Positions 7,754 through 36,088 of a stretch of DNA of 64,000 bases are shown in pieces; within the stretch, counting starts at the first letter, position 1; each line of letters starts with the position of its first letter. A program made the position numbers and the translations under genes. A model generated the notes under the pieces. It had not been told where the DNA came from. It made no database searches and saw nothing but the letters and a program-made list of their open reading frames with translations. Source of the DNA: Deltaproteobacteria bacterium RIFCSPHIGHO2_02_FULL_44_16 (lineage in GTDB: Bacteria > UBA10199 > 2-02-FULL-44-16); assembly GCA_001798185.1 (NCBI GenBank), contig MGRM01000009.1, positions 85,745 through 149,744 on the forward strand, given 5' to 3'.

Positions 7754-7807
7754 CGACGACCAATAAGTGTCGGATACTTTCTGGTCAATAACCTAATTCA
7801 TGTCAGA

Positions 7808-7828
7808 AACTGTCGAAATATGACAGTT
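7808..7828. promoter_or_regulatory. Inverted repeat AACTGTC-N7-GACAGTT, candidate AbiEi operator (site 1)
   Basis: aactgtcgaaatatgacagtt in the promoter region upstream of abiEi. A second copy lies ~71 bp downstream. Confidence 0.4.
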
Positions 7829-7878
7829 TTTAACATATATCTTGATTGTTTCAATAAAATTCTGTAATTTATGCTAAC

Positions 7879-7899
7879 AACTGTCAAAAAATGACAGTT
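7879..7899. promoter_or_regulatory. Inverted repeat AACTGTC-N7-GACAGTT, candidate AbiEi operator (site 2)
   Basis: aactgtcaaaaaatgacagtt immediately upstream of the abiEi start (7911). AbiEi antitoxins are known to autoregulate through paired inverted repeats. Confidence 0.4.
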
Positions 7900-7910
7900 T
7901 CAAACTTATT

Positions 7911-8546: not shown

Positions 8547-9424
8547 GCACAAAAATTCTTCAGGATCGACTTGATACCTACAATGCTCAAACTTCGTGGG
8601 AAGAAGAGATCGCGCTGAAAGAAATTCTTCAAGAGATTATTCTTGCAGCTCTTGGGAGAACCGATTTTTTTAAATATGCTGCGTTCCAGGGAGGAACAGC
8701 TCTTCGCATTCTTTATAGTCTTGAACGCTTTTCCGAAGATCTTGATTTTATTTTGCAGCAGGAAGAGAAAAGTTTTGCAATCACATCTTATCTTCAAGCA
8801 ATCCAACTTGAATGCACCTCGTATGGTATGTCACTTGAATTTCAGGATCGATCAAAAGCAGATCAAGCTGTTAAAAAAGCTTTTCTCAAAGACAATTCTC
8901 TCGGTAAAATTTTGCACATCAAACATCCCAGCATCTCTTCGCCTTCAACCCCTAAAAAACTACGCATTAAACTAGAGATCGATACGAATCCACCTGCAGG
9001 GAGTCATACAGAAATCAAATATCTGAACTTTCCCTTTGCTTCAGCTGTAACGATGCAGAATCTTCCAAGTCTTTTTGCAGGAAAAAGTCACGCGCTGCTC
9101 TGTCGCGAATATGTGAAGGGAAGAGATTGGTACGATTTTCTCTGGTACGTCGTCCGAAAAACATCTCTCAATTTTGAATTCCTGACACAGGCTTGTCGAC
9201 AACAGGGACCATGGAAACATCAAACGATGGTGATCACCCAAGAATGGTATTTGCATGAAATGAAAAAAAAGATTGAGTCCATCAATTGGCAAGAAGCGCA
9301 ACAAGATGTGATGCCATTTCTCCGTGCACATCATCTGAAGTCTCTTGAACTCTGGAGCACTGATTTTTTTCTGGATGCACTTCAAAAACTTGAACAGATC
9401 TTATCTGAAAAATCCGTAAGCTAA
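8543..9424 (+). CDS. abiEii: AbiEii/AbiGii-family nucleotidyltransferase toxin (DUF1814)
   Basis: Signature 'AAFQGGTALRILYSLERFSEDLDFI' (GGTAL…RFSEDLDF) of AbiEii nucleotidyltransferases. Confidence 0.75.
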   Translation: MSTKILQDRLDTYNAQTSWEEEIALKEILQEIILAALGRTDFFKYAAFQGGTALRILYSLERFSEDLDFILQQEEKSFAITSYLQAIQLECTSYGMSLEFQDRSKADQAVKKAFLKDNSLGKILHIKHPSISSPSTPKKLRIKLEIDTNPPAGSHTEIKYLNFPFASAVTMQNLPSLFAGKSHALLCREYVKGRDWYDFLWYVVRKTSLNFEFLTQACRQQGPWKHQTMVITQEWYLHEMKKKIESINWQEAQQDVMPFLRAHHLKSLELWSTDFFLDALQKLEQILSEKSVS

Positions 9425-10032
9425 AACCGCCCTGACACGGAAACACCAGGCGCTGCTTCTCGTGTGGACATTTGGGTCGGAAGAATGGTGATTTTTGCTT
9501 TGGCAGGAGTTGCTGCGCCAACACCAAGACCAATAGCGCCACCAATCAGAGCACCGAGAGGAAAGGAAAGAAGATAAAAAGCTGCTCTCATAGCTTCACA
9601 ATCATCAGTTTCTATTGCATTTCTACAATCCGAAACTGAATTACCGATAATCGCAGTAGTGCCAAGCACGCCTGCACCAATAAGTGCACCATACCCCAAT
9701 CCTGCGAGAGCACGATTGCCAACGCGTTCAGTTCCAACACCATCGATTCGATAAATATGCTCTGGCTTGAAGAGATACGTTTTCCCTTCTTCACTCACCG
9801 TCACACGCACATTCTCTTCGCTCCATGAAAGATGTGTTCCCGGCTCTCGGATTTTTCCATACTCGCGCACACGAACAGTGTACGTGGAGGTCAGTTCAAA
9901 AGGGGTCTCTCCCCACTTTCCATATCGATGTTTCGGAATGTCGGATTTTTTCGCGCAAGCAAATGCGTGGAAGAAAATGAACAAGAGCAAAAGAGATGCT
10001 CTTTTCCTGTTCGATCTTTTTGTCTGAGCCAT
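9421..10032 (-). CDS. Hypothetical lipoprotein-like / glycine-zipper protein (start chosen at MAQTKR; ORF track extends to 10083)
   Basis: Basic N-terminus, then a hydrophobic stretch and Cys (…FFHAFACAKK…). Gly-rich C-terminal hydrophobic segments. Confidence 0.3.
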   Translation of the reverse strand: MAQTKRSNRKRASLLLLFIFFHAFACAKKSDIPKHRYGKWGETPFELTSTYTVRVREYGKIREPGTHLSWSEENVRVTVSEEGKTYLFKPEHIYRIDGVGTERVGNRALAGLGYGALIGAGVLGTTAIIGNSVSDCRNAIETDDCEAMRAAFYLLSFPLGALIGGAIGLGVGAATPAKAKITILPTQMSTREAAPGVSVSGRF

Positions 10033-10090
10033 AGCATCAATGATAAACCTCAGACCAATAAGTGTCTGACACTTATTGGTCAAAATTGGA

Positions 10091-10993
10091 TTATCGTCTC
10101 GTCATTACTCTCGCCAAGGACTCTAGCTGACATAACTGATCATTGTCATCAATTTCAAAACCTCCTGCAATTCCAACGTACGGCGAAAAAAGCCGAATTT
10201 TTTTGTGATCCTCTCCAGAAGAAGTAAGAAAAGCACACCCTTGAAGCATCTGATTTGCAGACCAATGTGCCTTACGAAGAGCATCAATATGTTTCTGAAG
10301 TACAGAAGGAATATCATCGAGATTAAAATAAAAAGCAGACATGAACCCGCAAGCATCTCCAAATGCGGGAGAAAAGCGTGTTGCGGGCATTTCCCTCATG
10401 AGCGAAGAACGAAAACTATAACTCTGAGGATCGCTGAGATCATGAATCATAAAATAAAAAAGTGTGTGATAAGAATTGATATTTACAAAGTTCGCATTCG
10501 GGTTTTCATGAGCCACAAAATATGTTTCATCTTGAAAAAAAGGAGCTACCGATGCATCCCAAATGTCTCCCGATAGTGCACAAGAATTTCCTGACTGTTG
10601 AAGAGCTTCACCCCAACGCGTGAGAATATCGTGCAGAACAACAAAACGATTATAGTCGCCAAAAAATCGCTGAAAAGCAGTCTGCTGCAAAGACGAAAGA
10701 TGTTCTACGTCAGCAAAGGCTCCCACAACTATTTTGCTTAATTCAAAACGGGCATAGAGAATTTCTTCCTCTGTAGGATTTATTTTGTTCTTCAAAAAAT
10801 CATCGACAGAGAGAATGCCATCATCCGTTCCAAAAGAATCATAATCTCCGAGTCTTTTCTGAACACGAAGATCTTCAACCTGAATACTCAAAGCGCGATC
10901 GCGAACTTCTTTCACAAGCATAGTTTCACCTTTCAAGAGGGTTATCGCAGATTTTAAAAAAAGTTGCGTCCATTCCCAATAACTAACTCTCAA
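10091..10993 (-). CDS. Hypothetical protein (alternative start with an AGGTGA RBS at 10921)
   Basis: 300 aa ORF with no recognisable motifs. Confidence 0.35.
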   Translation of the reverse strand: MRVSYWEWTQLFLKSAITLLKGETMLVKEVRDRALSIQVEDLRVQKRLGDYDSFGTDDGILSVDDFLKNKINPTEEEILYARFELSKIVVGAFADVEHLSSLQQTAFQRFFGDYNRFVVLHDILTRWGEALQQSGNSCALSGDIWDASVAPFFQDETYFVAHENPNANFVNINSYHTLFYFMIHDLSDPQSYSFRSSLMREMPATRFSPAFGDACGFMSAFYFNLDDIPSVLQKHIDALRKAHWSANQMLQGCAFLTSSGEDHKKIRLFSPYVGIAGGFEIDDNDQLCQLESLARVMTRR

Positions 10994-24254: not shown

Positions 24255-24357
24255 GCCTAAACACCCTTCTTTTCGAACAATTTGCCTGCTAAAATAATAG
24301 TGGTAATAATAGATGTAATATGTGACATTTTTACTGAAGTCTGTGGAGGAAAGGCTC

Positions 24358-25269
24358 ATGACAAAATGGTATACATTAGCTCTGATCAATCCCTACTATC
24401 AAGATAACCATAATCTTTTCCAATCAGACATTTCTTTTGATGATGTGCTTATAACAAAAAAACCAACGTGGATCGATCGTGAGGATATCAAAAACAAGTT
24501 TGGTTTAAACCAAAGACGTATCATTGAAAACGCGGAGCTTTGTTTTATGACAGAATATAAAGCAAAATCTCTTGGAGAGCCCGATCCTTTGTGGAAAGGA
24601 AAAAAGCAGCGATCAAAACAAGATTTGCATGTTGAAAAGATCATGTTCTGTAACCAGGCACTGTGGCTATCTCAACCGACCTCTTTGAACTTTCAGGTTC
24701 TTCTCCACATTGAAAAAAGAAATGGAAAACATACCGGAAGAGAATTCTCAACTTTTCCAGCTGCTCTTCCTCATAGCGAAGATAGTGAAAGTCTGATTCA
24801 TCAAAAAAATATTCAGGAAGCTCAAACTCTTTTCAGTAAGATTTGCTCTTTACACCGTAAGGGTTCCACATGGATTGCTTTGCATAATCTTTGGTCCGCA
24901 CTTTCAGCTCCTCAAGGTCAATGGCTCATGAGATATTTGTTGCTGTGGATCGCTCTTGAAGCACTTTTTGGATCTGATATCGAGATTACACATCGACTTT
25001 CCGAAAGAATTTCCTTTTTCATTGCCGATGATCGTTTTCAAGCGAAGGATTTGTATGAAAGATCTAAGTATTGTTATCGCTGGCGCTCTAAAATTGTTCA
25101 CGGTAACGGAATGGATAAGCTTACACCAAATGATTCAGAGAAAATCATGTATGACTCTGAAGATTTGGTCAGAACTGCTTTGAAGAAAATTCTTTTGAAT
25201 GATGACCTGATAAATACGTTTAGCGGAAATGGACGAGAAAAATGTCTCGACGAACTGATTTTTGCTTAA
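24358..25269 (+). CDS. Hypothetical protein with a HEPN-like R-x4-H-G motif (candidate Abi/RNase effector); AT-rich gene
   Basis: 'YRWRSKIVHGNG' matches the Rx4-6H HEPN consensus in a predicted helical C-terminal region. GGAGGA RBS 8 nt upstream of ATG 24358. Confidence 0.3.
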   Translation: MTKWYTLALINPYYQDNHNLFQSDISFDDVLITKKPTWIDREDIKNKFGLNQRRIIENAELCFMTEYKAKSLGEPDPLWKGKKQRSKQDLHVEKIMFCNQALWLSQPTSLNFQVLLHIEKRNGKHTGREFSTFPAALPHSEDSESLIHQKNIQEAQTLFSKICSLHRKGSTWIALHNLWSALSAPQGQWLMRYLLLWIALEALFGSDIEITHRLSERISFFIADDRFQAKDLYERSKYCYRWRSKIVHGNGMDKLTPNDSEKIMYDSEDLVRTALKKILLNDDLINTFSGNGREKCLDELIFA

Positions 25270-25280
25270 AAATATTAACT

Positions 25281-26318
25281 ATGAAAACTCTCCAACAATT
25301 CGAAAATGAACTCAGAGAAGTACCGGCATCTGCCGCATGGTATATTGGCGACCTTGGAGAAGCACGCGGTAAGCAAGAACTCTTCACACGGCAATCTCAA
25401 CAGAGACTCAAGGTCCTACGTCAGCATGCGTTGATTGAAAGTGCGGTCTCGTCCAATCGGATCGAAGGAGTAACGGTTGATCAAGATCGTGTAAAAGCCG
25501 TGATTCTAGGCCGCTCAGCTCTGCACGATAGAGATGAAGAGGAGATACGGGGATATCGCAATGCACTTAAGTGGATTCACGAAAAGAAGCCAATGATTAC
25601 GGAAAAAACGATCAAAGAACTTCATCATCTCGCTCGGGGAAAAATTGGAGACGCTGGGCAATACAAAACAAAGGACAGTGATATTATCGAACGCCACACA
25701 GATGGTACATATACTGTTCGCTTCAAAACCGCTTCTGCAAAAGAGACATCCAAAAATATGAAGGAGCTTGTTTCGTTGTGGCAAGATCATCTCAAAAATA
25801 AAGCTATTCATCCACTTGTCATTTTGGCGGGATTTAATCTCGATTTTCTTTGCGTACATCCCTTGCGCGATGGCAATGGTCGTGTGTCGCGATTGCTGCT
25901 TCTGCTTCAGCTTTATCATCTGGGTTATGAAGTTGGACGGTACATTAGTCTTGAACGACTGATCGAAGAAAACAAAGAACGTTACTACGAAACCTTGAAG
26001 CTCAGCTCACAGGGTTGGCATGAGGGAAAGCATGATCCGTGGCACTACATCAACTTTTTACTATTCATTCTCAAAGAAGCCTACAAGGAATTTGAAAAAA
26101 GAGCCGGACAAATCAAAGAACCTAAAGGAGCCAAAACAGAATTGATTGAAGCGGCAATTCGATCACTGGGAAATGGATTCACGGTTTCGGATCTAGAAAA
26201 ATCCTGCCCTACTGTCAGTCGTGACATGATTCGCCGTGTGCTCCACAATTTGAAGAAAGCAAAAAAGGTTGAATGCCTTGCACGGGGCCCAGGGGCCACC
26301 TGGAAGCAAAAAGGGTAA
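25281..26318 (+). CDS. Fic-family protein (class II, auto-inhibited AMPylase type) with a C-terminal wHTH-like region
   Basis: Fic motif 'HPLRDGNGRVSRLL' (HPFx[DE]GNGR) and N-terminal inhibitory 'SSNRIEG' ([ST]xxxE[GN]). Confidence 0.8.
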   Translation: MKTLQQFENELREVPASAAWYIGDLGEARGKQELFTRQSQQRLKVLRQHALIESAVSSNRIEGVTVDQDRVKAVILGRSALHDRDEEEIRGYRNALKWIHEKKPMITEKTIKELHHLARGKIGDAGQYKTKDSDIIERHTDGTYTVRFKTASAKETSKNMKELVSLWQDHLKNKAIHPLVILAGFNLDFLCVHPLRDGNGRVSRLLLLLQLYHLGYEVGRYISLERLIEENKERYYETLKLSSQGWHEGKHDPWHYINFLLFILKEAYKEFEKRAGQIKEPKGAKTELIEAAIRSLGNGFTVSDLEKSCPTVSRDMIRRVLHNLKKAKKVECLARGPGATWKQKG

Positions 26319-26411
26319 TACACATTAATAAGTGTAATAATAAGTGTAATGTATATAGGAATTTGTAGCGTTTTGTTTACGTTGTCTAAACCTCTCACTA
26401 CAGAATCATGA

Positions 26412-26440
26412 TTGAATTTTCGCCTGTAAAATTCTAGTAT
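26412..26440 (+). promoter_or_regulatory. Candidate sigma70-type promoter for the MTase operon (TTGAAT-17-TAGTAT)
   Basis: ttgaattttcgcctgtaaaattctagtat in an AT-rich spacer carrying 'ataagtgtaat' direct repeats, ~40 bp upstream of the MTase ATG. Confidence 0.3.
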
Positions 26441-26479
26441 TATGGCTCTCAAAATTTTGATTCGTGTAGACCTAAATCT

Positions 26480-28465
26480 ATGACTAAAGAAATTGAAAAA
26501 AACCAAACTTTGCCAACGCAAGAAAAGTTTTTTTCTACCGAGAAACTACGTCGGTCAGCGCGAGCGGGGACAAATCTACCTGACCCCACGATGGCACCCT
26601 ATGGGTATGATGCCAAACAGCACTACGGCCATCTCTTTCCCAAGTTGGAATTGCCGCGATTGTTTCCGCCGGCGTCGCATCATCCCGATGACCACGTTAG
26701 CTTTGGCTCGCCAAGTATGGAACCCCATCAGCTTTATCTGGGGGACAACCTCTATGTTCTGCGCCAGTTGCCCACTGAATCAATCGACCTGATTTACATC
26801 GACCCGCCCTTCTTTTCCAATCGGACCTACACCCAAATCTGGGGTGACGACAATGAAGTGCGTTCTTTCACCGATATTTTTCAGGATGGGATGTTTTCTT
26901 ATCTCGCTTGGCTGAATGCCCGATTGTGGGAAATGAAGCGGGTACTCAAGTCTACCGGTTCCATTTACGTTCATTGCGATTGGCATGCAGCTCATTACAT
27001 CAAGTGTGAACTCGATAAAATTTTCGGCTATGACAATCTTCGGAACGAGATTATCTGGTGTTACCAAAATGGCGGCAAAGGAAAGGAAAATTTTGCCCGC
27101 AAGCATGATATAATTTTTTGGTACTCAAAAACGCAACAATGGATTTTTAACGAAGCCGACGTTCATATACCCTATGAATTAATTTCGCCTAATTCTGTAA
27201 CGCCATTTAATCTGAAAGACGGACAAGGTAGACGCTATCGGGAGAGAATCTCAAATGGGAAGAAGTATGTCTACTATGAAGATAATGGGAAAATTCCCAA
27301 CGATTGGTGGTTAGATGTACAGCCGTTGACTGGGCGTCATGGGTGGGATGAGAGATTAGGGTATCCTACACAAAAACCGGAATCTTTACTTGAAAGAATC
27401 GTTAAGGCGTCTTCAACTTCCAACGGTATAGTCGCTGATTTTTTCATGGGTGGTGGCACAGCGGGATCTGTCGCTCTGAAATTGGATCGCCGTTTTATCG
27501 GCTGTGACATTTCTCGCGTTGCTGTCAGCGTTACCGCTAGCCGTTTAATTGATATCGCTGAAAATATTTCAGGCATAACAGTAACAAACAAAGCCCAGCC
27601 GACTCTACCAATGAAACAGGCAGACGTTGCCGATATTCGCGTGGGCTATGTGGGGAGCTACCCTCAAGATAAATTTCGCGGTATCTCCCATGAGGAATTT
27701 TCAAAATTCATCCGCACTGTATACCAGGCCATGCCCTTTACGGGTCAGGCTCAATGGATTCATGGCTTGGCCAACAACAAAATTATCCTTTCCATTGGCC
27801 CGGGCGACCCCAATGAACGGGTGACGCTTACACAAGTGGATGGCGCCGTCAAAGACACGGTCAAACAGTATTCTCGACAATTCGCCGAGGGAGAAGACAA
27901 AATTCTTCAGATTATCGGGTGGTCTTTTGATCCTCAGTGTGAAGGTTGGAAGCGCAAGGCGGCAGAAACCCTCAACAGCAAGGGAGTCAAGTTACAAATC
28001 GATCTGATTTCTTTGGGGAGCGAGAGTTTCCGTCAGAAAATTTTCCGCAACGTTGGTGAAAGCAATCTTGATCTCAAATTCAATCGTCTTAATCAACTCC
28101 TCTCATTCACCGGCGCGCCCTATGCCGGAAAAATCACTGTCACCAGTAGGAACAAGTTGACCGTCTCTTTTGCTTTGGAAGGGGCAAGGGCTATCGGTGC
28201 GGGCGCCAAGCTGATCAACTGTCAGTGGGATTTTTCCTATGACAACAACCGCTTTGCCAGTCGGGAACATGCTTTGAACCGGGACGGAAAGAATGGAGAT
28301 TTTATCGCTATCCTGACAACGGATCACACGTTTCCAAAGTCAGGAACGTACAGCATTGCGGCGAGGGTACAGGACAATCTCGACGGACAAGCCACAGTTG
28401 CCGCCCGAATCGAAGTGAGTGAAACCGATTGCAGGATTATTGAAGAGAAGATCGTGAATGTATGA
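26480..28465 (+). CDS. DNA methyltransferase (N6-adenine/N4-cytosine, beta-class, type III Mod-like / PF01555) with a ~300 aa C-terminal extension of unknown function
   Basis: Motif IV 'IYIDPPFFSN' precedes motif I 'DFFMGGGTAGSV' by ~220 aa (beta class), with 'SIYVHCDW…NEIIWCY' in between. 661 aa total. Confidence 0.8.
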   Translation: MTKEIEKNQTLPTQEKFFSTEKLRRSARAGTNLPDPTMAPYGYDAKQHYGHLFPKLELPRLFPPASHHPDDHVSFGSPSMEPHQLYLGDNLYVLRQLPTESIDLIYIDPPFFSNRTYTQIWGDDNEVRSFTDIFQDGMFSYLAWLNARLWEMKRVLKSTGSIYVHCDWHAAHYIKCELDKIFGYDNLRNEIIWCYQNGGKGKENFARKHDIIFWYSKTQQWIFNEADVHIPYELISPNSVTPFNLKDGQGRRYRERISNGKKYVYYEDNGKIPNDWWLDVQPLTGRHGWDERLGYPTQKPESLLERIVKASSTSNGIVADFFMGGGTAGSVALKLDRRFIGCDISRVAVSVTASRLIDIAENISGITVTNKAQPTLPMKQADVADIRVGYVGSYPQDKFRGISHEEFSKFIRTVYQAMPFTGQAQWIHGLANNKIILSIGPGDPNERVTLTQVDGAVKDTVKQYSRQFAEGEDKILQIIGWSFDPQCEGWKRKAAETLNSKGVKLQIDLISLGSESFRQKIFRNVGESNLDLKFNRLNQLLSFTGAPYAGKITVTSRNKLTVSFALEGARAIGAGAKLINCQWDFSYDNNRFASREHALNRDGKNGDFIAILTTDHTFPKSGTYSIAARVQDNLDGQATVAARIEVSETDCRIIEEKIVNV

Positions 28466-29556
28466 TGGTATCAAAAGGAAACAAAATGGAAGGACTCAAA
28501 CCTCAAGATTGGAAGGATTTACTAAGCGGGGTACGCAATCTTATTATTTCAGCCAGGCGAGCCGCCTCGCGAAGCATTGACACTCTTCAGGTGTTCACCA
28601 GCTTTGAGATCGGACGCCGTGTTGTCGAACATGAACAACTCGGAGAAAAGCGAGCCACTTATGGAAAACACGTGCTTACAAGACTTTCAGAGAGCCTAAC
28701 TCGTGAGTTCGGGCGCGGATTTTCAGAGGACAATCTCTCAAATATGCGGCGTTTTTATCTTGAATATCGGAAATGCTTGCCGAAGATTTCCGAGAAGCCT
28801 TCTCGGAAATCCATTTCCGCGCCAGGCCAGTCAATCTTATCGAATGTCAGCTCTGTTTTGAGCTGGTCCCATTACGTTTTTCTGATGACAATTTCAGACA
28901 AGGATGAACGACAATTCTATGAAATCGAATCTGCCCAAAACGGCTGGTCTCTGCCGGAACTCAAACGCCAGTTCAATTCCAGCCTTTATGAACGTCTGGC
29001 CTTAAGCCGGAACAAGAAAAAAGTCCTGGAGTTGGCCAAAAAGGGCCAATTGATAGAAACTTCCTCCGACCTGATCAAGCAACCCCTTGTGCTGGAATTT
29101 CTCGGCTTGGATGAAAAAAACAAATATGCGGAGTCGGATCTGGAATCCGCCATTATCGATAAACTGGAACATTTTCTGCTTGAGTTGGGCAAAGGCTTTC
29201 TTTTCGAAGCCCGGCAAAAACGTTTCACCTTTGACACCGATCACTTCTACGTTGACCTTGTATTTTATAATCGCCTTCTACGCTGCTACGTGCTCATCGA
29301 TCTCAAGATCGGCAAACTCACCCACCAAGATTTGGGACAGATGCAGATGTACGTCAATTATTTCGACCGCTTTGTAAAAAGGGATGGCGAACATCCCACC
29401 ATCGGCATCATTCTTTGCCGAACAAAAGGTAGTGCCTTGGTTGAAATCACGCTTCCTGAAAAAGCCAACATCTATGCGTCAGAATATAAACTCTACCTCC
29501 CATCGAAAAAAGATCTGAAAAGAAAACTTTTGGCATGGGCCGCAGAGGAAGAATAA
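28462..29556 (+). CDS. DUF1016 / YhcG-family PD-(D/E)xK nuclease-like protein (alternative start at 28486)
   Basis: YhcG-like N-terminal region plus a C-terminal '…FYVDLVFYNRLLRCYVLIDLKIGKL…' (D…[I]DLK) PD-(D/E)xK core. ATGA overlap with the MTase. Confidence 0.6.
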   Translation: MMVSKGNKMEGLKPQDWKDLLSGVRNLIISARRAASRSIDTLQVFTSFEIGRRVVEHEQLGEKRATYGKHVLTRLSESLTREFGRGFSEDNLSNMRRFYLEYRKCLPKISEKPSRKSISAPGQSILSNVSSVLSWSHYVFLMTISDKDERQFYEIESAQNGWSLPELKRQFNSSLYERLALSRNKKKVLELAKKGQLIETSSDLIKQPLVLEFLGLDEKNKYAESDLESAIIDKLEHFLLELGKGFLFEARQKRFTFDTDHFYVDLVFYNRLLRCYVLIDLKIGKLTHQDLGQMQMYVNYFDRFVKRDGEHPTIGIILCRTKGSALVEITLPEKANIYASEYKLYLPSKKDLKRKLLAWAAEEE

Positions 29557-29559
29557 TTC

Positions 29560-31695
29560 ATGATTACCGAAGAAGAATTACAATGGCGACTCTGGACGGA
29601 GACGCCCCAGTTCCCAAATCTGAATGACCATCAAAGACTGGTGGCTCAAAGGTTTTTCGAGCGCCTTAGCGGACAGGATTTCTTCAAACCACTTTATCGT
29701 CATCAATGGGAGGCGATTGCACGTGTTATTCATAATGGTGAAGTACGAGGAAAGTGGGAATGCCTTCTCGATATTGTAACCGGAGGCGGTAAGACCGTCA
29801 TCATGGCTGGTTTGATGTCGTACTTTTGGCAGGTTCGTAAGTGCGAAAAATTCCTGATTCTTGTTCCCAACACCATTGTTCGTGAACGGGTCAAAGACGA
29901 CTTTGAGTTTAATAATCCAGCTAATGCATTCAAAGAATTCCCTTTTTTCTTCAACTCTTGCTCCAGGGTACCTGAACGCCTTGTGTGTAAAGTCCTGCGG
30001 GATGGAAGCGACGCCTCCGGCATCCGTGACGCCCATGTGATTGTCGCAAACATCCATCAACTTTACGAAGGCAAGGGTTCTCCTGCCCTTGAAGTGCTCC
30101 TTGCAGACAAGGTTACACCCGAACTCGTGATTTTTAATGATGAGGCGCATAACGCAGCGGCGGGAGAATATCGGGAAGTGTTAAAACTTTTGCGTCGAAA
30201 AACCGTTGCCCGGATTGACCTGACTGCAACCCCTTACCGCCTCGACAAGCAGGACCTCGATACCTATCCGCCGCTGTATGAATACCATGTGCAGGAAGCC
30301 ATGCGCGATGGAGTGGTAAAACAGATCGTAGTGACCAGACCAGACATCCAGAGCGTCAAACTGCAATATGAAGAGTGGGACGAAAACAATCAGGTGATTC
30401 GCACGCTTGATGCCGAAGAAATGCCCTGGGAGCAGATCGAAAGTGAACTCAGGCGAAGCGGTGCCGTTCGTTTCGTCACGGCAGATAACGCCCGCAGACA
30501 ACAGCTTCAAATTGCAAAAAGCTGTTTGGATTATCAGAAAAAATGTGTCCCTCGCGGAGTGGATGATAAGCCACAATGGGAACCGTTGATGCTGACAGTT
30601 GCACTCTCCCAAAAAGATGCTTTTAAAATTTATGAAACCCTTCAGAAAAAACCATTTGGCTATAAACCAGAAGAATTATTGCTTGTTCACAGCAAACAAG
30701 AAGAACTGCAGAACAGGAAAGCATTTTTGCTTGGACGTAAAGGTCCAGAGGGTTTGAATAAAGAAGATGAAGAGTTATGGCATGAGACACGAAAAGTACG
30801 GGTCATCATTGCTGTTTCTATGTTGCGTGAAGGTTGGGATGTTAGAAATATTGCCATTATTTGCCTTTTTCGCAAATTCAGTTTTCAGAAAAAGGGGGAT
30901 CGGACTTATACAGTTTATGGCCCACAGATCATTGGTCGAGGCCTAAGACGAATCCGCCAGCCCAACGAACGGGATTTTCTGTTTGTCATCGATCATCCGG
31001 CTTTCAATCATGATTGGCTTTGGGAGATTCTTTCAGCTCACAAGTACGCCAAGCCACTGAATCCAGGCGACGCCGTGGAAGATTCTTGTATTGAAGACAT
31101 CCCTCTGGAAAAGCCGAAAATAGAGGAATCGGAGGAGGCCAATAAGGAAGACAAGAAACCGGAATTGGATGTTGAAGATATACTCAATAGTCTCCCTTCC
31201 ATTGATGGCAAGGGTGTTCATCCCATCGCCAATTGGCAAAAACATTTTCGAGAGTTTCCCCTAGCAAAAAAAATATCATCGGCCCTCCAAAGAATTACCA
31301 ATATAAAAAGTCAAAAGCTGGGGGGCGATACAACTGCGCATGTCTTGCCTGAAGAAGAGATTAATATTGAGGAACTCAATGAAAGTGTGGCCGGTCAATA
31401 CAAAGATAAAAAACGGGAAGACTTGATTCGGGAACTCCAAACAGACCTGCTCAACGAGCCTCATCATGCACTGATGCTTTGTTTCAAGATGGAGACCGCC
31501 GAGGAAACGCTTAAGTTGATGCAAGCGCTGGAATGGATTTTGACCGAACTTTTTGCCATTCAGGGGGTTAGTGGTTTGGGCGAATCTCCGGAGGCCCAAT
31601 TGCGTAAACTGCATTTTTCCTTACCCCAGATTTTGGATGAGTTTCGGAAGCCGGAAATCGTCTTGGGCATTCTTGGTGAGGGGTCTGAAAAATGA
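29560..31695 (+). CDS. SF2 DEAH-box helicase, type III restriction Res-subunit-like, lacking a recognisable C-terminal endonuclease domain
   Basis: Motif I 'DIVTGGGKTVIMAG', motif II 'VIFNDEAHNAAA', 'LTATPYR', motif VI 'QIIGRGLRR'. 711 aa. Begins 4 nt after the DUF1016 stop. Confidence 0.7.
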   Translation: MITEEELQWRLWTETPQFPNLNDHQRLVAQRFFERLSGQDFFKPLYRHQWEAIARVIHNGEVRGKWECLLDIVTGGGKTVIMAGLMSYFWQVRKCEKFLILVPNTIVRERVKDDFEFNNPANAFKEFPFFFNSCSRVPERLVCKVLRDGSDASGIRDAHVIVANIHQLYEGKGSPALEVLLADKVTPELVIFNDEAHNAAAGEYREVLKLLRRKTVARIDLTATPYRLDKQDLDTYPPLYEYHVQEAMRDGVVKQIVVTRPDIQSVKLQYEEWDENNQVIRTLDAEEMPWEQIESELRRSGAVRFVTADNARRQQLQIAKSCLDYQKKCVPRGVDDKPQWEPLMLTVALSQKDAFKIYETLQKKPFGYKPEELLLVHSKQEELQNRKAFLLGRKGPEGLNKEDEELWHETRKVRVIIAVSMLREGWDVRNIAIICLFRKFSFQKKGDRTYTVYGPQIIGRGLRRIRQPNERDFLFVIDHPAFNHDWLWEILSAHKYAKPLNPGDAVEDSCIEDIPLEKPKIEESEEANKEDKKPELDVEDILNSLPSIDGKGVHPIANWQKHFREFPLAKKISSALQRITNIKSQKLGGDTTAHVLPEEEINIEELNESVAGQYKDKKREDLIRELQTDLLNEPHHALMLCFKMETAEETLKLMQALEWILTELFAIQGVSGLGESPEAQLRKLHFSLPQILDEFRKPEIVLGILGEGSEK

Positions 31696-32138
31696 TTCAG
31701 TCGAAGAGAGGTATTCTTAAAGGACTCAAGAAAACTCCAAAAGGTGAATCTACTTATGACAGTCTTTTGGAGCGAGATTACATGTTTGAATTGGAAAATA
31801 TGGGTGGCGTGGTTTCATGGACCAAGGACCACGGGATCCGAATTCCCTACAAAATCTTCGGGATCATTTCACGCCACTACTTGCCGGACTTCCTTGTCAC
31901 CTATGCGGACGGGTCAAAGGAGATTCATGAAACCAAAGGTGCTGGCTTTCTCGCCTGGGTTTCCACGCACGCCAAACGGCATGCCGGTGATGCCTGGTGC
32001 CGCCAGCGCGGGATGGTTTACCGGTTTATTGAAAACTCCAAAGGGGCGCTGTTTGCGAAGAATAATAGCTTGTCTCAACTTGAGGGAAGTTCCTCCTTCA
32101 AGCAGAAAAAACAAGTCGGGTCATTTGAAGATTTGTGA
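31692..32138 (+). CDS. Small PD-(D/E)xK-type nuclease-like protein (148 aa), translationally coupled to the helicase
   Basis: 'YLPDFLVTYADGSKEIHETKG' is a D…ExK core. ATGA overlap with the helicase stop. Confidence 0.4.
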   Translation: MIQSKRGILKGLKKTPKGESTYDSLLERDYMFELENMGGVVSWTKDHGIRIPYKIFGIISRHYLPDFLVTYADGSKEIHETKGAGFLAWVSTHAKRHAGDAWCRQRGMVYRFIENSKGALFAKNNSLSQLEGSSSFKQKKQVGSFEDL

Positions 32139-32276
32139 ATGTGACTAGAAATGCGGGCATGGAAATTATTTGAACAATTATTTTACTCCACCTAACGCGT
32201 CTTTCGGGGGGAGTCGTAATAGAAACCGCGCTCCGCCCCAACTCTTTATATTCACCTTCTTTACACCATTGTTAAA

Positions 32277-32711
32277 TTGTTTAAAATTATTATTGCAATA
32301 TCTGTAAGAATGGCTTACTCGTCACAAATGGCCACCAAAGGTGAAAAGAAAAGTGAGTTTCTGAGACACAAGAAAGAGATCGAAGAGACTTACAACCGTA
32401 AACTTGAAGCCCTGTATGAGCTTTATCCTGAGTTCAAAAATACCACATCTTCAATCAATGGCGGCAGTGTTAGCACAAGCTCTTATGGCAGCCTTAAAAA
32501 GGTTTTACATCAAGCCATAGATAGGCGCGAGGGTGAGTTTACTTCGCGTGATCTAAAAAAATGGATCTCCGAGATTGATGCATCTGTGGGGGCGGCGATG
32601 ACACCTGCATCAGTTTCAAATGCGTTGGCGCGACTGAAGAAGGAGCAAAAAATAGAGCAAATTAAAAAGGGAGCAGGATCATCACCATCGATTTTTAAAA
32701 AGAAAAATTAA
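32277..32711 (+). CDS. Hypothetical protein (start uncertain)
   Basis: 144 aa ORF upstream of the HNH gene. Lys/Glu-rich; no recognisable motif. Confidence 0.3.
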   Translation: MFKIIIAISVRMAYSSQMATKGEKKSEFLRHKKEIEETYNRKLEALYELYPEFKNTTSSINGGSVSTSSYGSLKKVLHQAIDRREGEFTSRDLKKWISEIDASVGAAMTPASVSNALARLKKEQKIEQIKKGAGSSPSIFKKKN

Positions 32712-32862
32712 AGGCCAACCGCGCTAACGATTGGCCCTTAAATAGGGGACAGGAAAACCCGTCCACTTGTTCAATGCAAGTACACTTGTAGCGGTTCCCC
32801 TCCATTAAATCAAGAGCCCTTTCGTTTTCCTGTGGGTTCAATTTAAATAGGGAGGTTCTGAA

Positions 32863-33123
32863 ATGAACTTAACTCAAGAACAGCTTAAACAAATTTGGTT
32901 TAAAGCTAAAAACGCAGGTGCAGAAAACGACCGGAATGGCTTTCGTAAAGACAAATACGGAGCTTGGATAAAATGGTCTGACTACGGCAACAGAAACAGT
33001 CAATATGGATGGGAAGTTGACCACATTATTGCCACCGCAAATGGTGGGTCTGACACTATGAGCAATCTTTGCCCACTGCATTGGAAAAACAACGCATCCA
33101 AAAGCGGCAGCAGATTCTTATAG
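32863..33123 (+). CDS. Small HNH endonuclease
   Basis: 'YGWEVDHIIATANGGSDTMSNLCPLHWKNNASK' H-N-H core. GGGAGG RBS 6 nt upstream. Confidence 0.65.
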   Translation: MNLTQEQLKQIWFKAKNAGAENDRNGFRKDKYGAWIKWSDYGNRNSQYGWEVDHIIATANGGSDTMSNLCPLHWKNNASKSGSRFL

Positions 33124-33237
33124 CTTGAATGTTAATGGCCTTCAGAATAAAACGACGGTAGCTTGCAATGCCGTCGTTTTTATTTTGCAAGCAAACTGCT
33201 TGGGCGCCAGATATCAAGGATATTCCCTAGAGTGAGC

Positions 33238-33336
33238 ATGATGAAACACTACATCACCGCCACTGACCTCTATAATTTCAAAAAATGCGCTTATTGGCCG
33301 TACATGGATGGCAATACGTTGATAAAAGCACTTTAA
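33238..33336 (+). pseudogene. Orphan duplicated 5' fragment of the TM0106-type nuclease gene (encodes MMKHYITATDLYNFKKCAYWPYMDGNTLIKAL*)
   Basis: Its first ~23 codons are ~85% identical at the DNA level to 34580-34650, the N-terminus of the downstream nuclease ORF. It terminates after 32 codons. Confidence 0.4.
33244..33315 (+). repeat. Direct repeat DR-L (~70 bp) flanking the DUF4143 ATPase gene
   Basis: aaacactacatcaccgccactgacctctataatttcaaaaaatgcgcttattggccgtacatggatggcaat, matching 34580-34652. Confidence 0.55.
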
Positions 33337-33426
33337 AATCAATTGGTTATAAATAAATAAGCTCTGCGAAATATATGATGTTTTCAGCAACACCATTGCG
33401 TATTTTTTAACTTCTGTTAGGCTCTC

Positions 33427-34581
33427 ATGATGGTGGATTACACACGTATTCTTGACCTTCAAACTCCTCTCAAACGGAAAAGCCTTTTTCTTTTTGGGCC
33501 TCGCCAGACGGGGAAAACCTTTTATCTCAAGAAAACTTTTCCCAATATCCCTTTTTATAATTTGCTTGAGTCGAAAACATTTCTTCGGCTGAGTCAGCGC
33601 CCTCATTTACTCCGAGAAGAATTGATGGCAACTGCATCCGCGAATCCGCTGATTATTATAGATGAAATACAAAAACTTCCTCTTTTGCTTGATGAAGTTC
33701 ATTCATTGATTGAGGAAAAGAAAATGAAGTTTATTTTAACGGGGAGCAGCGCGCGGAAGTTAAAAAGAGGTGGAGCCAATCTTTTGGGAGGTCGGGCAAC
33801 AACGCTTCACCTCTATCCATTAGTTTCCGCTGAAATTCCCAATTTTGATTTGATCCGAGCTTTAAATTGGGGAACACTTCCTTCTCTTTACCCCTCTGAC
33901 GACCCGGAAAACGATCTTCATGATTATGTCGGAAATTATCTCAAAGAAGAAATCCAGGCGGAGGGGTTGGCGCGAAACATCGGAAATTTCTCTCGTTTTC
34001 TCCAAACAGCATCACTCTGCAACGCGGAACAAACTCATTTTACAAATATTGGAAACGATGCCCAAATATCGCCTCGCACTGTAGCGGAATATTTCTCCAT
34101 CTTGGAAGACACACTCATCGGATACATTTTAGAGCCCTATACAAAGACGAAAAAACGAAAGGCAGTTTCTACCGCGAAATTCTATTTTTTTGATTGCGGC
34201 GTTTGCAACGTTTTGGCCGGACGAAGAAACATCAGTCCAAAAACAGAACTGTTCGGAAAGTCGTTTGAGCAATTTATTTTTACAGAATTGAAAGCCTATC
34301 TTTCCTATAAGCGGGATTCCCGGCCGCTTACTTTTTGGAAATCCCAAATATCAGATTACGAAGTTGATTTTTTGATCGGAGATGAAATTGCCATTGAAGT
34401 AAAAGGTTCTGAATTGATTACAGAACGCCATTTAACGGGTATTAAGGCTCTTAAAGAAGAGTTGAAATTGAAAAAGAACATTATTGTTTCCATGGATGAA
34501 AAACCTCGAAAATTGGACGGCATTGATATTTTCCCCGTTTCTCATTTCCTTGAAATGTTATGGAGCGGAGAAATTGTCTAA
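33427..34581 (+). CDS. AAA+ ATPase, AAA_14 / DUF4143 family
   Basis: Walker A 'LFGPRQTGKTFYL', Walker B 'LIIIDEIQK', and a DUF4143-like C-terminal region. Confidence 0.7.
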   Translation: MMVDYTRILDLQTPLKRKSLFLFGPRQTGKTFYLKKTFPNIPFYNLLESKTFLRLSQRPHLLREELMATASANPLIIIDEIQKLPLLLDEVHSLIEEKKMKFILTGSSARKLKRGGANLLGGRATTLHLYPLVSAEIPNFDLIRALNWGTLPSLYPSDDPENDLHDYVGNYLKEEIQAEGLARNIGNFSRFLQTASLCNAEQTHFTNIGNDAQISPRTVAEYFSILEDTLIGYILEPYTKTKKRKAVSTAKFYFFDCGVCNVLAGRRNISPKTELFGKSFEQFIFTELKAYLSYKRDSRPLTFWKSQISDYEVDFLIGDEIAIEVKGSELITERHLTGIKALKEELKLKKNIIVSMDEKPRKLDGIDIFPVSHFLEMLWSGEIV

Positions 34582-36088
34582 ACACTACATCACCGCCACT
34601 GATCTCTATAATTTCAAGAAGTGCGCCTATCGACCATTTATGGATTTCAATGGGGATCTATCGTTGAAAGTCGACGTGCATCCGCTCGTGAAACTGCTGT
34701 GGGAATCGGGAGTGCAATATGAAGCAAAGGTCATTGAATCGTATCAGCGAGATCATTCCGAAAAATCGTTTCGTGCAATCGATCCTGAGAAGCCGGCATC
34801 CGAAGCTTTGGCCAAGGAAACGCTCAAAGCAATGCAAGATGGGATTGATATCATTTATCAAGGTGTTTTGATTTCAGGAAATAAACTCGGTCGTCCTGAT
34901 CTGCTTCTGAAAACACCGGGATCTTCGTCGCTCGGCGCGCATCATTATTATCCGATGGATATTAAACTCACTCGCATTGATGCGACATGGGATGATGGCA
35001 ATGAAAAGGTTCCCATAGAACAATTCTGGCAAATCTATTTTTATGGTGAACTTTTAGAGCACGTTCAAGGCAAGCGACCAGAGAAAGGTTATATCTATAA
35101 GACCAAGTCGCGCATTCTTCCGATTCCTCTTTATAAAGCTCCCAAGAATTACGAATGGTCAGTGAATCAATTAGAAAATTATCTTCAGGGAAATGCGTTC
35201 GGAGCAGAGCCAACGATCAACAGCAATTGCGGCTTATGCGACTGGAAAGATTCATGTCGAAGTTGGGCCGATGAAAAACAGGATATTTCACTCGTCTATT
35301 ATGTTGGTCAGGCAATGAAACTCGGACTCAATCAACTCGGCATTCGTTCGATCGAAGATCTTGCGGCGCAAGATCCAGACTATTTGACGAGAAAAGTTAT
35401 AGAACTGAAAAACCAAGGATTCTTTTGGAATGCAATGCCCGCCGATCTCCCTGCAAAATCTGTTGTGCGCGCGAAGATTCACCTGAGCAAAAAACCGGTC
35501 ATCCATAACCCCATCACTTTTCCTGATGCTGAAAAAGAGATTCATTACGATATCGAAGATGACCCAACACAGGATTTTGTCTATTTGCACGGCGCCTTGC
35601 TTATCGAGAAAGGGAAAGAGCCAAAGTATTACGCCTTCTTTGCAGAACATCGCGATGAGGAACGCACCATCACCGAACACCTGTTTGATTTTTTCAATCA
35701 GCACCCGGATGCGACTGTGTATCACTACAGTGATTACGAAAAGACAACGCTTAAGCGACTCATCAGTAAGCATCAACTCGATTCGACATCGTATGAACGA
35801 TTGTTCGGTAAAAATGGAACAGCAATCGATCTTTATAAAATTGTCACCGAGAATACTGACTGGCCGCTGACAAGCTATGGCGTCAAGGCGATCTGCAAGT
35901 TTTTGGGATTTCAGTGGGATGCCAGTGATGCTGGTGGCGCCGCATCGATTGTCTGGATGAATGAATATTTAAGCGGACATACAAGCATGAAAGAGAAAAT
36001 ACTCCGATATAATGAAGACGATTGTCGGGCGACCTCTTTTCTCAAAAACGAACTCATCAAAATGCAAAATCACACGAACGATGTGTAG
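34484..36088 (+). CDS. RecB-family nuclease, TM0106-like (Cas4/RecB-like N-terminal domain with Cys cluster, RNase-H-like C-terminal domain). Start ambiguous.
   Basis: Conserved N-terminal 'HYITATDLYNFKKCAYRPFMD'; Cys cluster 'CGLCDWKDSC'; C-terminal 'HYDIEDDP…VYLHG' RNase H-like. No ATG immediately precedes the conserved N-terminus, so the only in-frame ATG (34484) overlaps the ATPase gene. Confidence 0.5.
   Translation: MFPWMKNLENWTALIFSPFLISLKCYGAEKLSKHYITATDLYNFKKCAYRPFMDFNGDLSLKVDVHPLVKLLWESGVQYEAKVIESYQRDHSEKSFRAIDPEKPASEALAKETLKAMQDGIDIIYQGVLISGNKLGRPDLLLKTPGSSSLGAHHYYPMDIKLTRIDATWDDGNEKVPIEQFWQIYFYGELLEHVQGKRPEKGYIYKTKSRILPIPLYKAPKNYEWSVNQLENYLQGNAFGAEPTINSNCGLCDWKDSCRSWADEKQDISLVYYVGQAMKLGLNQLGIRSIEDLAAQDPDYLTRKVIELKNQGFFWNAMPADLPAKSVVRAKIHLSKKPVIHNPITFPDAEKEIHYDIEDDPTQDFVYLHGALLIEKGKEPKYYAFFAEHRDEERTITEHLFDFFNQHPDATVYHYSDYEKTTLKRLISKHQLDSTSYERLFGKNGTAIDLYKIVTENTDWPLTSYGVKAICKFLGFQWDASDAGGAASIVWMNEYLSGHTSMKEKILRYNEDDCRATSFLKNELIKMQNHTNDV
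34580..34652 (+). repeat. Direct repeat DR-R (~70 bp), coinciding with the conserved N-terminal coding region of the nuclease gene
   Basis: aaacactacatcaccgccactgatctctataatttcaagaagtgcgcctatcgaccatttatggatttcaatgggg. Confidence 0.55.

What the first reader, a model, noticed from the sequence alone, without database searches (positions are those of the whole stretch)
26412..32138. Four-gene, translationally coupled MTase / DUF1016 / DEAH-helicase / mini-nuclease operon: a type III-like restriction system with its nuclease apparently split off
The operon is a beta-class (type III Mod-like) methyltransferase with a ~300 aa C-terminal domain of unknown function (26480-28465), ATGA-overlapped by a DUF1016/YhcG PD-(D/E)xK protein (28462-29556). 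Four nt later comes a 711 aa SF2 DEAH helicase with type III Res-like motifs I/II/III/VI (29560-31695), which is ATGA-overlapped by a 148 aa PD-(D/E)xK-like protein (31692-32138). Canonical type III Res subunits fuse the helicase to a C-terminal PD-(D/E)xK endonuclease. Here the ~250 aa after motif VI show no such motif, whereas two separate PD-(D/E)xK proteins sit in the same operon. The cassette also looks more GC-rich than its surroundings. The gene order and tight coupling imply one functional unit, which matches no classical type I/II/III/IV architecture that I know. It is a candidate undescribed helicase-assisted R-M/defense system.
Basis: partly seen in the sequence, partly recalled or inferred. 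Interest (0 to 1): 0.85.

Follow-up and report, generated by a model that had tools for sequence, protein, structure and literature searches.

The report
Split-nuclease type III-like restriction system with cargo

Summary
All four ORFs, their start/stop overlaps and their motifs are at the stated coordinates.

The conserved unit has three genes, not four: a beta-class methyltransferase, an SF2 DEAH ATPase and a 148-aa PD-(D/E)xK nuclease. In 80 bacterial and archaeal loci, the MTase lies upstream in 76 and the nuclease downstream in 78. The exceptions are contig ends.

The ATPase and nuclease match the order and combined length of fused Res-like proteins. These carry Pfam's RE_endonuc domain, and one pairs with a type III Mod. 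So this is a type III-like system with a genuinely split Res, not a pseudogene.

DUF1016 is absent from relatives whose helicase is 84%, 74% and 68% identical. It sits in a ~1.1-kb insertion at the MTase-stop/helicase-start overlap. Other loci carry different cargo at this junction: DUF3800, HD, NYN, Schlafen/AlbA_2, MNT-HepT or AAA ATPases.

The MTase's unassigned C-terminal 300 aa fold as a catalytically degenerate restriction-endonuclease-like domain plus a PKD-like beta-sandwich.

I found no published description or experimental data. I rate it a new variant of a known kind, of moderate interest.

The parts
26480..28465 (+). Mod-like beta-class DNA amino-methyltransferase (661 aa), the first gene of the conserved three-gene core
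   Evidence: PF01555, E 1e-43. DPPF at aa 108 comes before FMGGGT at aa 322. An MTase lies upstream of the helicase in 76 of 80 loci. The closest solved relatives are M.RsrI, CcrM and M.MboIIA, followed by the type III Mods Mbo45V and EcoP15I.
27065..27349 (+). Central hypervariable segment of the MTase (aa 196-290), the probable target-recognition domain
   Evidence: This segment is 16-34% identical among close relatives, whereas the flanking catalytic motif blocks are 70-89% identical. It shows almost no conservation across the family.
27665..28057 (+). Degenerate restriction-endonuclease-like (PD-(D/E)xK fold) alpha/beta domain of the MTase (aa ~396-526)
28115..28462 (+). PKD-like beta-sandwich at the C-terminus of the MTase (aa ~546-661)
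28462..29556 (+). DUF1016/YhcG PD-(D/E)xK protein (364 aa): lineage-specific cargo inserted at the mod/res junction, not part of the conserved core
   Evidence: PF17761 plus PF06250. PADLOC candidate PDC-S02, E 5e-138. The gene is absent in L081, L082 and L084. The insertion boundaries are ATGA|...|ATGA when compared with L081. It occurs in only 2 of 80 loci, in other positions. The closest plasmid relative sits between hsdM and hsdS.
29560..31695 (+). Res-H: SF2 DEAH helicase-like ATPase (711 aa). RecA lobes span aa ~44-500, followed by a disordered linker and a C-terminal helical bundle, with no nuclease domain
   Evidence: ResIII, E 9e-22. Motifs I, II, III and VI are invariant in 77 homologues. 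AF2 model. The Foldseek top hit is EcoP15I Res 4zcf_C (E 1.9e-13), narrowly ahead of RadD, XPB and HsdR.
31692..32138 (+). Res-N: stand-alone TnsA-like/RE_endonuc-like PD-(D/E)xK nuclease (148 aa)
   Evidence: PF08722, E 1e-7. It matches positions 858-940 of 970 in NCBIfam NF046055. E27, P65-D66, E80-x-K82 and K95 are invariant in bacterial and archaeal members. It is 38% identical to the C-terminal domain of the fused Pseudomonas Res. A nuclease lies downstream of the helicase in 78 of 80 loci.

Best explanation
The core is a three-gene, translationally coupled, type III-like restriction-modification system.

**Components**
- The Mod-like beta-class MTase probably makes m6A. It recognises DNA through a short, swappable central TRD and methylates host sites.
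- The SF2 DEAH ATPase (Res-H) and the 148-aa PD-(D/E)xK nuclease (Res-N) are separately translated halves of what is a single Res polypeptide in fused relatives.

**Inferred mechanism, by analogy with EcoP15I**
- Mod, Res-H and Res-N assemble on unmethylated sites.
- ATP hydrolysis by Res-H licenses long-range communication along the DNA.
- Res-N then cuts.

**Mod C-terminus**
- It carries a catalytically dead endonuclease-fold domain and a PKD-like domain.
- Both are conserved and are not the specificity element. They most likely act as an assembly or DNA-contact platform (inferred).

**DUF1016**
- It is an autonomous accessory nuclease that was inserted exactly at the mod-stop/res-start overlap in this lineage, preserving the operon.
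- It rides in a junction that recurrently accepts defence and toxin-antitoxin cargo.
- It is not a subunit of the restriction enzyme.

**Shown versus inferred**
- Shown: gene content, co-conservation, homology to fused Res proteins, intact catalytic motifs, the insertion boundaries and the variability of the TRD.
- Inferred: complex formation, the methylated base, the cleavage mechanism and defence activity.
For: 1. **Co-conservation.** In 80 loci from many bacterial phyla and three archaeal lineages, the order is MTase, helicase, nuclease.
   - 76 of 80 have the MTase and 78 of 80 have the nuclease. The rest are truncated by contig ends.
   - 74 of 78 helicase-nuclease pairs overlap or abut.
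2. **Conserved as separate proteins.** Helicase homologues are ~705-713 aa and nuclease homologues ~146-150 aa, at 55-85% identity across phyla. This excludes a frameshift artefact.
3. **Link to fused Res.**
   - NCBIfam NF046055 matches the helicase at model positions 570-619 and the nuclease at 858-940.
   - The fused Pseudomonas protein has ResIII plus PF19778 RE_endonuc, and its neighbour is a full-length PADLOC MTase_III.
   - P0386 (856 aa) has a related helicase plus RE_endonuc, and its partner MTase shares the Mod core and the dead-nuclease domain.
4. **Catalytic residues are intact.** This holds for the ATPase, the nuclease and the MTase.
5. **TRD in the type III/beta position.** The central segment is hypervariable among close relatives.
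6. **DUF1016 is an insertion.** The same slot holds DUF3800, NYN, HD, SLFN_AlbA_2, MNT+HepT, AAA_21/23, and AAA_15+DUF4276 in other loci. DUF1016 embedded in type I operons is seen and in PMC9881135.
Against: - There is no experimental evidence for methylation, restriction or complex formation in any member.
- The helicase is only generically SF2. EcoP15I Res is the top structural hit, but at 13% identity and nearly tied with RadD and XPB. By sequence it matches type I HsdR models about as well.
- The MTase profile is closer to type II beta MTases than to canonical type III Mods.
- The window's nuclease does not itself reach Pfam PF19778. The link runs through fused homologues.
- DUF1016 is start/stop-coupled to the MTase, so functional interplay cannot be excluded.
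- The 80 loci are the top-scoring subset of at least 573 pattern-selected candidates, so the architecture statistics apply to this clade rather than to all relatives.
Confidence: 0.7

Rival explanations
1. DUF1016 is an integral second nuclease subunit of one MTase/DUF1016/helicase/mini-nuclease machine.
For: The genes are tightly packed. The MTase and DUF1016 overlap at ATGA, and only 3 nt separate DUF1016 from the helicase. DUF1016 has an intact D...DxK core (VDLVF at aa 264, IDLK at aa 279).
Against: DUF1016 is absent from relatives whose helicases are 84%, 74% and 68% identical; there the MTase stop directly overlaps or abuts the helicase start. It occurs in only 2 of 80 loci, once upstream of the MTase and once downstream of the nuclease. 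Other loci carry unrelated genes at the same junction. DUF1016 relatives occur alone or inside type I operons.
Confidence: 0.05
2. DUF1016 is not a subunit but a functionally coupled 'guard' embedded in the R-M operon. This is the PrrC/EcoprrI logic (from my own knowledge, not checked here). DUF1016 would be co-expressed with the restriction complex and kept silent by it, then released as a second-line nuclease when a phage inhibits restriction. The mod/res junction would be a dedicated slot for such back-up effectors.
For: 18 of 76 loci have more than 300 nt between mod and res. The ORFs scanned there are typical abortive-infection or toxin modules: HepT/MNT, HD, NYN, Schlafen/AlbA_2, DUF3800 and AAA_21. 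The helicase-nuclease junction carries no identified cargo. DUF1016 is PADLOC defence candidate PDC-S02, and such genes are enriched next to R-M genes (PMC9881135).
Against: The evidence is only positional. DUF1016 homologues also stand alone. Insertions may simply be tolerated at the one junction where operon polarity can be preserved. No interaction data exist.
Confidence: 0.2
3. The trio is an ATP-dependent restriction system that works more like CglI/NgoAVII or a translocating type I/ISP motor than like type III. The free nuclease would be delivered by a continuously translocating ATPase, not by an ATP-triggered sliding switch.
For: The nuclease and ATPase are separate proteins, as in CglI's R2H2 complex (PMC5737866). 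The helicase matches type I HsdR models about as well as type III models. The MTase is closer to type II beta enzymes.
Against: The 148-aa nuclease has no identified DNA-recognition domain, unlike the PLD+B3 architecture of R.CglI. Recognition must therefore come from Mod, as in type III. Fused relatives have the Res layout with RE_endonuc, and one pairs with a PADLOC type III Mod. The mod-then-res operon order and central TRD fit type III.
Confidence: 0.15
4. The split is a decayed or frameshifted canonical res gene, or an assembly error, and the system is non-functional.
For: None beyond the unusual split.
Against: The same split occurs in 78 independent loci and in more than 150 protein clusters of ~148 aa. 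The catalytic residues are invariant. Start/stop overlaps are conserved, and the nuclease ATG has a Shine-Dalgarno-like GAGGGG upstream.
Confidence: 0.02

Closest known systems
Type III restriction-modification systems (EcoP15I/EcoPI; Mod2Res1)
   Same: The operon runs mod then res. Mod is a beta-class amino-MTase with a central variable TRD. The motor is an SF2 DEAH ATPase whose best structural match is EcoP15I Res. The PD-(D/E)xK nuclease is homologous, via fused relatives, to the RE_endonuc domain (PF19778), which from memory is the type III Res endonuclease domain.
   Different: Res is encoded as two proteins (711 + 148 aa). Mod has a short TRD and is closer in sequence to type II beta MTases. 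Mod also carries a C-terminal dead endonuclease-fold domain plus a PKD-like domain, which no solved Mod matched by sequence. Sequence identity to canonical Res is very low (13%).
BPTD_3080 family restriction endonuclease (NCBIfam NF046055) and P0386-type fused Res proteins
   Same: The modules come in the same order: helicase motifs I-VI, then a ~240-aa spacer, then the TnsA-like/RE_endonuc nuclease. The nuclease is 38% identical to the fused C-terminal domain. P0386's helicase is 24% identical over the ATPase core and shares the family motif after motif VI. P0386's partner MTase shares the Mod core and the dead-nuclease domain.
   Different: Those are single polypeptides of 856-1028 aa. The window's proteins score far below the NCBIfam cut-off (29-42 bits against 800). 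The Pseudomonas system runs res then mod and adds a UvrD-like gene.
CglI/NgoAVII ATP-dependent restriction enzymes (separately encoded R and H proteins; PMC5737866)
   Same: The nuclease and the SF2 helicase-like ATPase are separate polypeptides that must cooperate, and cleavage depends on NTP hydrolysis.
Accessory genes embedded in type I R-M operons (from my own knowledge, PrrC in EcoprrI; DUF1016 between hsd genes, PMC9881135)
   Same: A DUF1016 gene sits between core R-M genes and is co-oriented and tightly packed with them. The closest plasmid homologue lies between hsdM and hsdS.
   Different: Here the host operon is a type III-like system, and the slot is the mod/res overlap. I found no paper describing such a slot in type III-like operons.

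Membership tests
Type III R-M | Mod is a beta-class (motif IV before motif I) N6A/N4C amino-methyltransferase | tested here: met
   DPPF at aa 108 and FMGGGT at aa 322. PF01555. The profile hits M.RsrI, CcrM, MboIIA, Mbo45V and EcoP15I Mod.
Type III R-M | The TRD is inserted centrally between the two halves of the MTase fold and determines specificity | tested here: met
   aa 196-290 is 16-34% identical among close relatives, against 70-89% for the flanking motif blocks. The segment is short (~95 aa), as in type II beta enzymes.
Type III R-M | Res is one polypeptide combining SF2 helicase motifs with a C-terminal PD-(D/E)xK endonuclease | tested here: not met
   The helicase (711 aa) has no nuclease fold. 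The nuclease is a separate 148-aa protein in 78 of 80 loci. Fused homologues exist elsewhere.
Type III R-M | The nuclease domain is homologous to the Res endonuclease domain (I take PF19778 RE_endonuc to be this domain, from memory) | tested here: inconclusive
   The window's nuclease hits PF08722 only. Its fused homologues (L086 protein, P0386, P0333) pass or approach the PF19778 threshold.
Type III R-M | A Mod2Res1 complex that hemimethylates asymmetric sites, with ATP-triggered sliding and cleavage needing inverted site pairs | not testable with these tools
   This needs biochemistry or methylome data.
Type I R-M | HsdS specificity subunit, gamma-class HsdM, and HsdR with an N-terminal nuclease | tested here: not met
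   There is no HsdS or HsdM in the operon, and the MTase is beta-class. The helicase gives only partial HsdR/EcoAI matches, far below their cut-offs (47 bits against 550).
BPTD_3080 family restriction endonuclease (NF046055) | Full-length equivalog match (cut-off 800 bits) to a ~970-aa fused helicase-nuclease | tested here: not met
   The helicase scores 42 bits and the nuclease 29 bits, each as a partial match. They are homologous but not members.
DUF1016/YhcG (PADLOC candidate PDC-S02) | DUF1016_N plus the YhcG_C PD-(D/E)xK domain over the full length | tested here: met
   PF17761 (E 9e-38) and PF06250 (E 9e-53). PDLC04807, E 5.5e-138, covering aa 9-360.
Known multi-gene defence systems in PADLOC (DISARM, BREX, Dnd/Ssp/Pbe, Hma, MADS and others) | Full-length matches of the component proteins to the system's models | tested here: not met
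   The helicase gives only partial ATPase-core matches (PbeA 7e-11, REase_III 6e-10). The nuclease gives none. The MTase matches generic MTase_II and MTase_III models.

The most novel reading that the evidence does not exclude
The family would be a distinct, cross-domain subtype of ATP-dependent R-M in which a free mini-nuclease is recruited to the enzyme rather than tethered to it. The nuclease might pair with the conserved dead endonuclease-fold domain on Mod, forming a FokI- or BspD6I-like pseudo-heterodimer. This would change how and where DNA is cut, for example by allowing single-site cleavage or regulated nuclease loading. In addition, the mod/res junction would be an evolved slot in which back-up effectors such as DUF1016 are co-expressed and guarded by the restriction complex.
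Probability: 0.2. Interest if true: 0.75.

Novelty: new variant of a known kind. Interest (0 to 1): 0.5.

Why it matters
- **Annotation.** If confirmed, this would add a bipartite-Res subtype to type III restriction-modification. In the deposited records I could check, the window's MTase, DUF1016 protein and nuclease are 'hypothetical protein', and homologues of the helicase carry only generic helicase names. PADLOC's models give only weak, partial matches to the helicase. The clade spans many uncultivated bacterial phyla and several archaeal lineages, so current defence-system annotation may be missing it.
- **Mechanism.** A natural split between motor and nuclease offers a way to study how ATPase switching licenses cleavage in type III-like enzymes.
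- **New recognition specificities.** The short, swappable TRD suggests a reservoir of new methylation and restriction specificities.
- **Operon evolution.** The repeatedly occupied mod/res junction extends to type III-like operons the 'defence genes nested inside R-M operons' pattern already known for type I. It also gives a concrete context for testing what DUF1016/YhcG (PDC-S02) does.

Tried and rejected
- **Pfam on unassigned regions.** A scan of the MTase C-terminal part, the helicase C-terminal part and the inter-lobe region at E up to 10 gave only sub-threshold PKD hints.
- **PDB sequence searches.** The single nuclease sequence found nothing. The nuclease profile gave only marginal hits to TnsA, T7 endonuclease I and a chain deposited as an IF-2 homologue (E 0.1-1). 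The helicase reached only a type I HsdR fragment.
- **Last homology search.** I queried with the MTase C-terminal domain alone. It returned 20 mostly truncated proteins, so the MSA for that model is shallow.
- **'Mod's dead-nuclease domain is the docking site for the free nuclease'.** The correlation test did not support this. The partner MTase of the fused-Res P0386 has the same domain.
- **Apparent helicase-nuclease fusion in L079.** This is an artefact of my stop-to-stop ORF listing in a locus with long overlapping reading frames.
- **Promoter and terminator scan.** Counts equal the shuffled expectation, so it is uninformative.
- **tRNA scan.** None in the window, so there is no tRNA-linked island boundary.
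- **Plasmid search with the helicase.** No match at E 1e-20.
- **Literature.** I searched for BPTD_3080, split Res, and TnsA-like together with defence. Nothing describes this architecture.
Full report
**1. Observation**

- The MTase/DUF1016 junction and the helicase/nuclease junction are both ATGA overlaps.
- Three nucleotides separate the DUF1016 stop from the helicase ATG.
- Pfam assigns N6_N4_Mtase, DUF1016_N + YhcG_C, ResIII and Tn7_TnsA-like_N respectively.
The MTase has DPPF at aa 108 before FMGGGT at aa 322, which is the beta-class order. The helicase has TGGGKT at 74, DEAH at 194, TATP at 222 and QIIGRGLRR at 456.
- The cassette GC is 0.464 against a window mean of 0.443, ranking 2nd of 117 equal-sized windows. 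The difference is real but small.
- The window comes from the groundwater MAG 'Deltaproteobacteria bacterium RIFCSPLOWO2_02_FULL_44_10'. The MTase, DUF1016 protein and nuclease are deposited as hypothetical proteins.

**2. The conserved unit has three genes, not four**

Helicase homologues are ~705-713 aa and nuclease homologues ~146-150 aa. Both occur as separate proteins at 55-85% identity in many metagenomes.

I scanned one genome per species using two helicase motifs and kept the best 80 loci. They come from:
- Bacteria: Patescibacteria, Chloroflexota/Dehalococcoidia, Planctomycetota, Verrucomicrobiota, Bacteroidota, Nitrospinota and Proteobacteria.
- Archaea: Thermoplasmata, Woesearchaeota and Hydrothermarchaeota.

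I searched six-frame ORFs of these loci with the window's proteins:

| Feature | Count | Note |
|---|---|---|
| MTase upstream of the helicase | 76 of 80 | the other 4 have less than ~0.85 kb of contig upstream |
| MTase C-terminal region detected | 74 of 80 | |
| Nuclease downstream of the helicase | 78 of 80 | the other 2 end at the helicase |
| Helicase-nuclease overlapping or abutting | 74 of 78 | |
| DUF1016 present | 2 of 80 | once upstream of the MTase (L026), once downstream of the nuclease (L054) |

**3. DUF1016 is a precise cargo insertion**

- Relatives whose helicases are 84% (L081), 74% (L082/L083) and 68% (L084, Rhodanobacteraceae) identical have MTase, helicase and nuclease with nothing in between.
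- Only the 99%-identical contig from the same species shares DUF1016.
- At the DNA level L081 reads gcATGAttaccgaagaagaatta. The window reads gtATGA, then a ~1.1-kb insert (the two ATGA copies are 1098 nt apart), then ATGAttaccgaagaagaatta. The insert therefore sits exactly in the mod-stop/res-start overlap, with ATGA at both edges.
- 18 of 76 loci have more than 300 nt at this same junction. The ORFs I scanned there are DUF3800, NYN, HD + HD_assoc_2, Schlafen/AlbA_2 + HATPase_c_4, MNT + HepT and an AAA_21/23 ATPase.
- A fused-Res relative carries AAA_15/21 + DUF4276 in the same position.
- I found no cargo at the helicase-nuclease junction. The four wider gaps there follow a shortened helicase ORF.
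- DUF1016 itself is PADLOC defence candidate PDC-S02.
- Its closest plasmid homologue (52% identity) lies between hsdM and hsdS of a type I operon, while others stand alone. Its association with R-M genes has been noted before (PMC9881135).

**4. The helicase plus the 148-aa protein make a split Res**

- NCBIfam's 'BPTD_3080 family restriction endonuclease' model (970 positions) matches the helicase at positions 570-619 and the nuclease at 858-940.
- A member on a Pseudomonas avellanae plasmid is 1028 aa.
  - Motifs I and VI lie at ~170 and 603-647.
  - A C-terminal domain at 877-944 is 38% identical to the window's nuclease.
  - That domain passes Pfam's threshold for PF19778 (RE_endonuc). 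From memory this is the type III Res endonuclease domain; the output only calls it 'Endonuclease domain'.
  - Its neighbour is a full-length match to a PADLOC type III MTase model.
- An exhaustive profile search with the nuclease found 1215 representatives at E <= 1e-3.
  - The top ranks are small stand-alone proteins.
  - A population of ~250-340 aa proteins follows. Several of those scanned carry NUMOD3 or zinc-finger-type matches ahead of the nuclease domain, and I take them to belong to other contexts.
  - One 856-aa protein, P0386, combines a related helicase with RE_endonuc at 730-814. The helicase is 24% identical over the ATPase core (E 2e-24) and shares the HPxF...W motif after motif VI.
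  - 856 aa is almost exactly 711 + 148.
- The nuclease's E27, P65-D66, E80-x-K82 and K95 are invariant from bacteria to archaea.
- The helicase's ATPase motifs are invariant in 77 homologues.
- The helicase AF2 model (pLDDT 79) has two RecA lobes, a largely disordered linker (519-612) and a helical bundle (611-705). It has no nuclease fold.
- Its best PDB match is EcoP15I Res (E 1.9e-13), but RadD, XPB and HsdR are close behind.

**5. The Mod protein**

- By profile it is closest to the type II beta m6A MTases M.RsrI, CcrM and MboIIA. The type III Mods Mbo45V and EcoP15I come next, and N4C enzymes score lower. m6A is therefore the more likely product (inferred).
- aa 196-290 is 16-34% identical among close relatives, against 70-89% for the catalytic motif blocks. 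This marks a short central TRD.
- The previously unassigned C-terminal 300 aa are conserved, so they are not the specificity element.
- The AF2 model of this region (pLDDT 76) has two parts.
  - A PKD-like beta-sandwich.
- In alignments of 51 and 25 family MTases, the nuclease-fold part keeps only G, Y, F, V and W residues, with no catalytic acidic or lysine residues. The PKD part keeps the QWDF signature.
- The partner MTase of the fused-Res P0386 has the same dead-nuclease domain. That domain is therefore not a specific adaptation to the split nuclease.

**6. Mechanism**

The best-supported reading is a type III-like R-M system.
- Mod recognises and methylates DNA.
- Res-H provides the ATP-dependent switch or motor.
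- Res-N, translated separately but coupled to Res-H, supplies the cut.
- Mod's dead nuclease and PKD domains act as a scaffold or DNA contact.

Everything beyond domain content, conservation and homology is inference. The rival readings are:
- a PrrC-like guard role for DUF1016;
- a CglI-like translocating mechanism, since CglI is a characterised case of separately encoded nuclease and ATPase proteins (PMC5737866);
- the four-gene model, which lack of co-conservation largely refutes;
- pseudogenisation, which conservation refutes.

**7. Novelty**

Published diversity within type III systems includes m4C Mods and an extra ATPase (PMC8259958). I found no description of a bipartite Res, of this Mod architecture, or of a cargo slot in type III-like operons. 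PADLOC's models give only weak, partial REase_III matches to the helicase. I rate it a new variant of a known kind, with interest 0.5.

**8. Caveats**

- No experimental data exist for any member.
- The 80 loci are the best-scoring subset of at least 573 pattern-selected candidates.

Noticed in passing
window 33244-33315 and 34580-34651: A 72-nt direct repeat (85% identical) brackets the AAA_14/DUF4143 (PADLOC PDC-S01) gene at 33427-34581. The second copy covers roughly codons 3-26 of the TM0106-family RecB-like nuclease gene. The ATPase gene therefore looks like a cassette inserted into the 5' end of that gene with duplication of the target. This would be a second cassette-style insertion in the same island.
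   Followed up: partly
window 24322-36088: The R-M cassette lies in a defence-island-like stretch between the sucB/lpd genes and the feoAB genes (feoAB identified in L085). The stretch holds an unassigned 315-aa ORF, a Fic/SoFic-like gene (25242-26318), the cassette, an unassigned 144-aa ORF, an 86-aa HNH protein (32863-33123), PDC-S01 and a TM0106 RecB-like nuclease. There is no tRNA in the window. In relative L081 a TM0106-like gene sits directly upstream of the MTase.
   Followed up: partly
L038 2908-3809; L061 8615-9519; L077 9875-10839: Three loci carry two tandem paralogues of the small nuclease downstream of the helicase. Both copies keep E27, D66, E80, K82 and K95. The second copy has a hydrophobic C-terminal tail that could be a membrane anchor. 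This hints that the nuclease may act as a dimer or heterodimer.
   Followed up: partly
L001 (Gracilibacteria) 4325-10540: All three genes appear broken into several stop-to-stop ORFs under the standard bacterial code. This would fit UGA-recoded translation, which I recall for this lineage, rather than decay. The 1.7-kb mod/res gap holds ORFs that I did not identify.
   Followed up: no
window 29530-29557: The best sigma-70-like match in the region (TTGGCA, 16 nt, AATAAT; 10 of 12) lies at the 3' end of the DUF1016 insert, just upstream of the helicase ATG. It could drive res expression after the insertion, but such matches occur at the chance rate here.
   Followed up: no
window 28055-28114 (MTase aa ~526-545): The linker NVGESNLDLKFNRLNQLLSF between the dead-nuclease and PKD domains is 68-100% identical among the four closest relatives compared (89-100% in three of them), yet it is modelled with low confidence. 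It may be an interaction motif that only folds within a complex.
   Followed up: no
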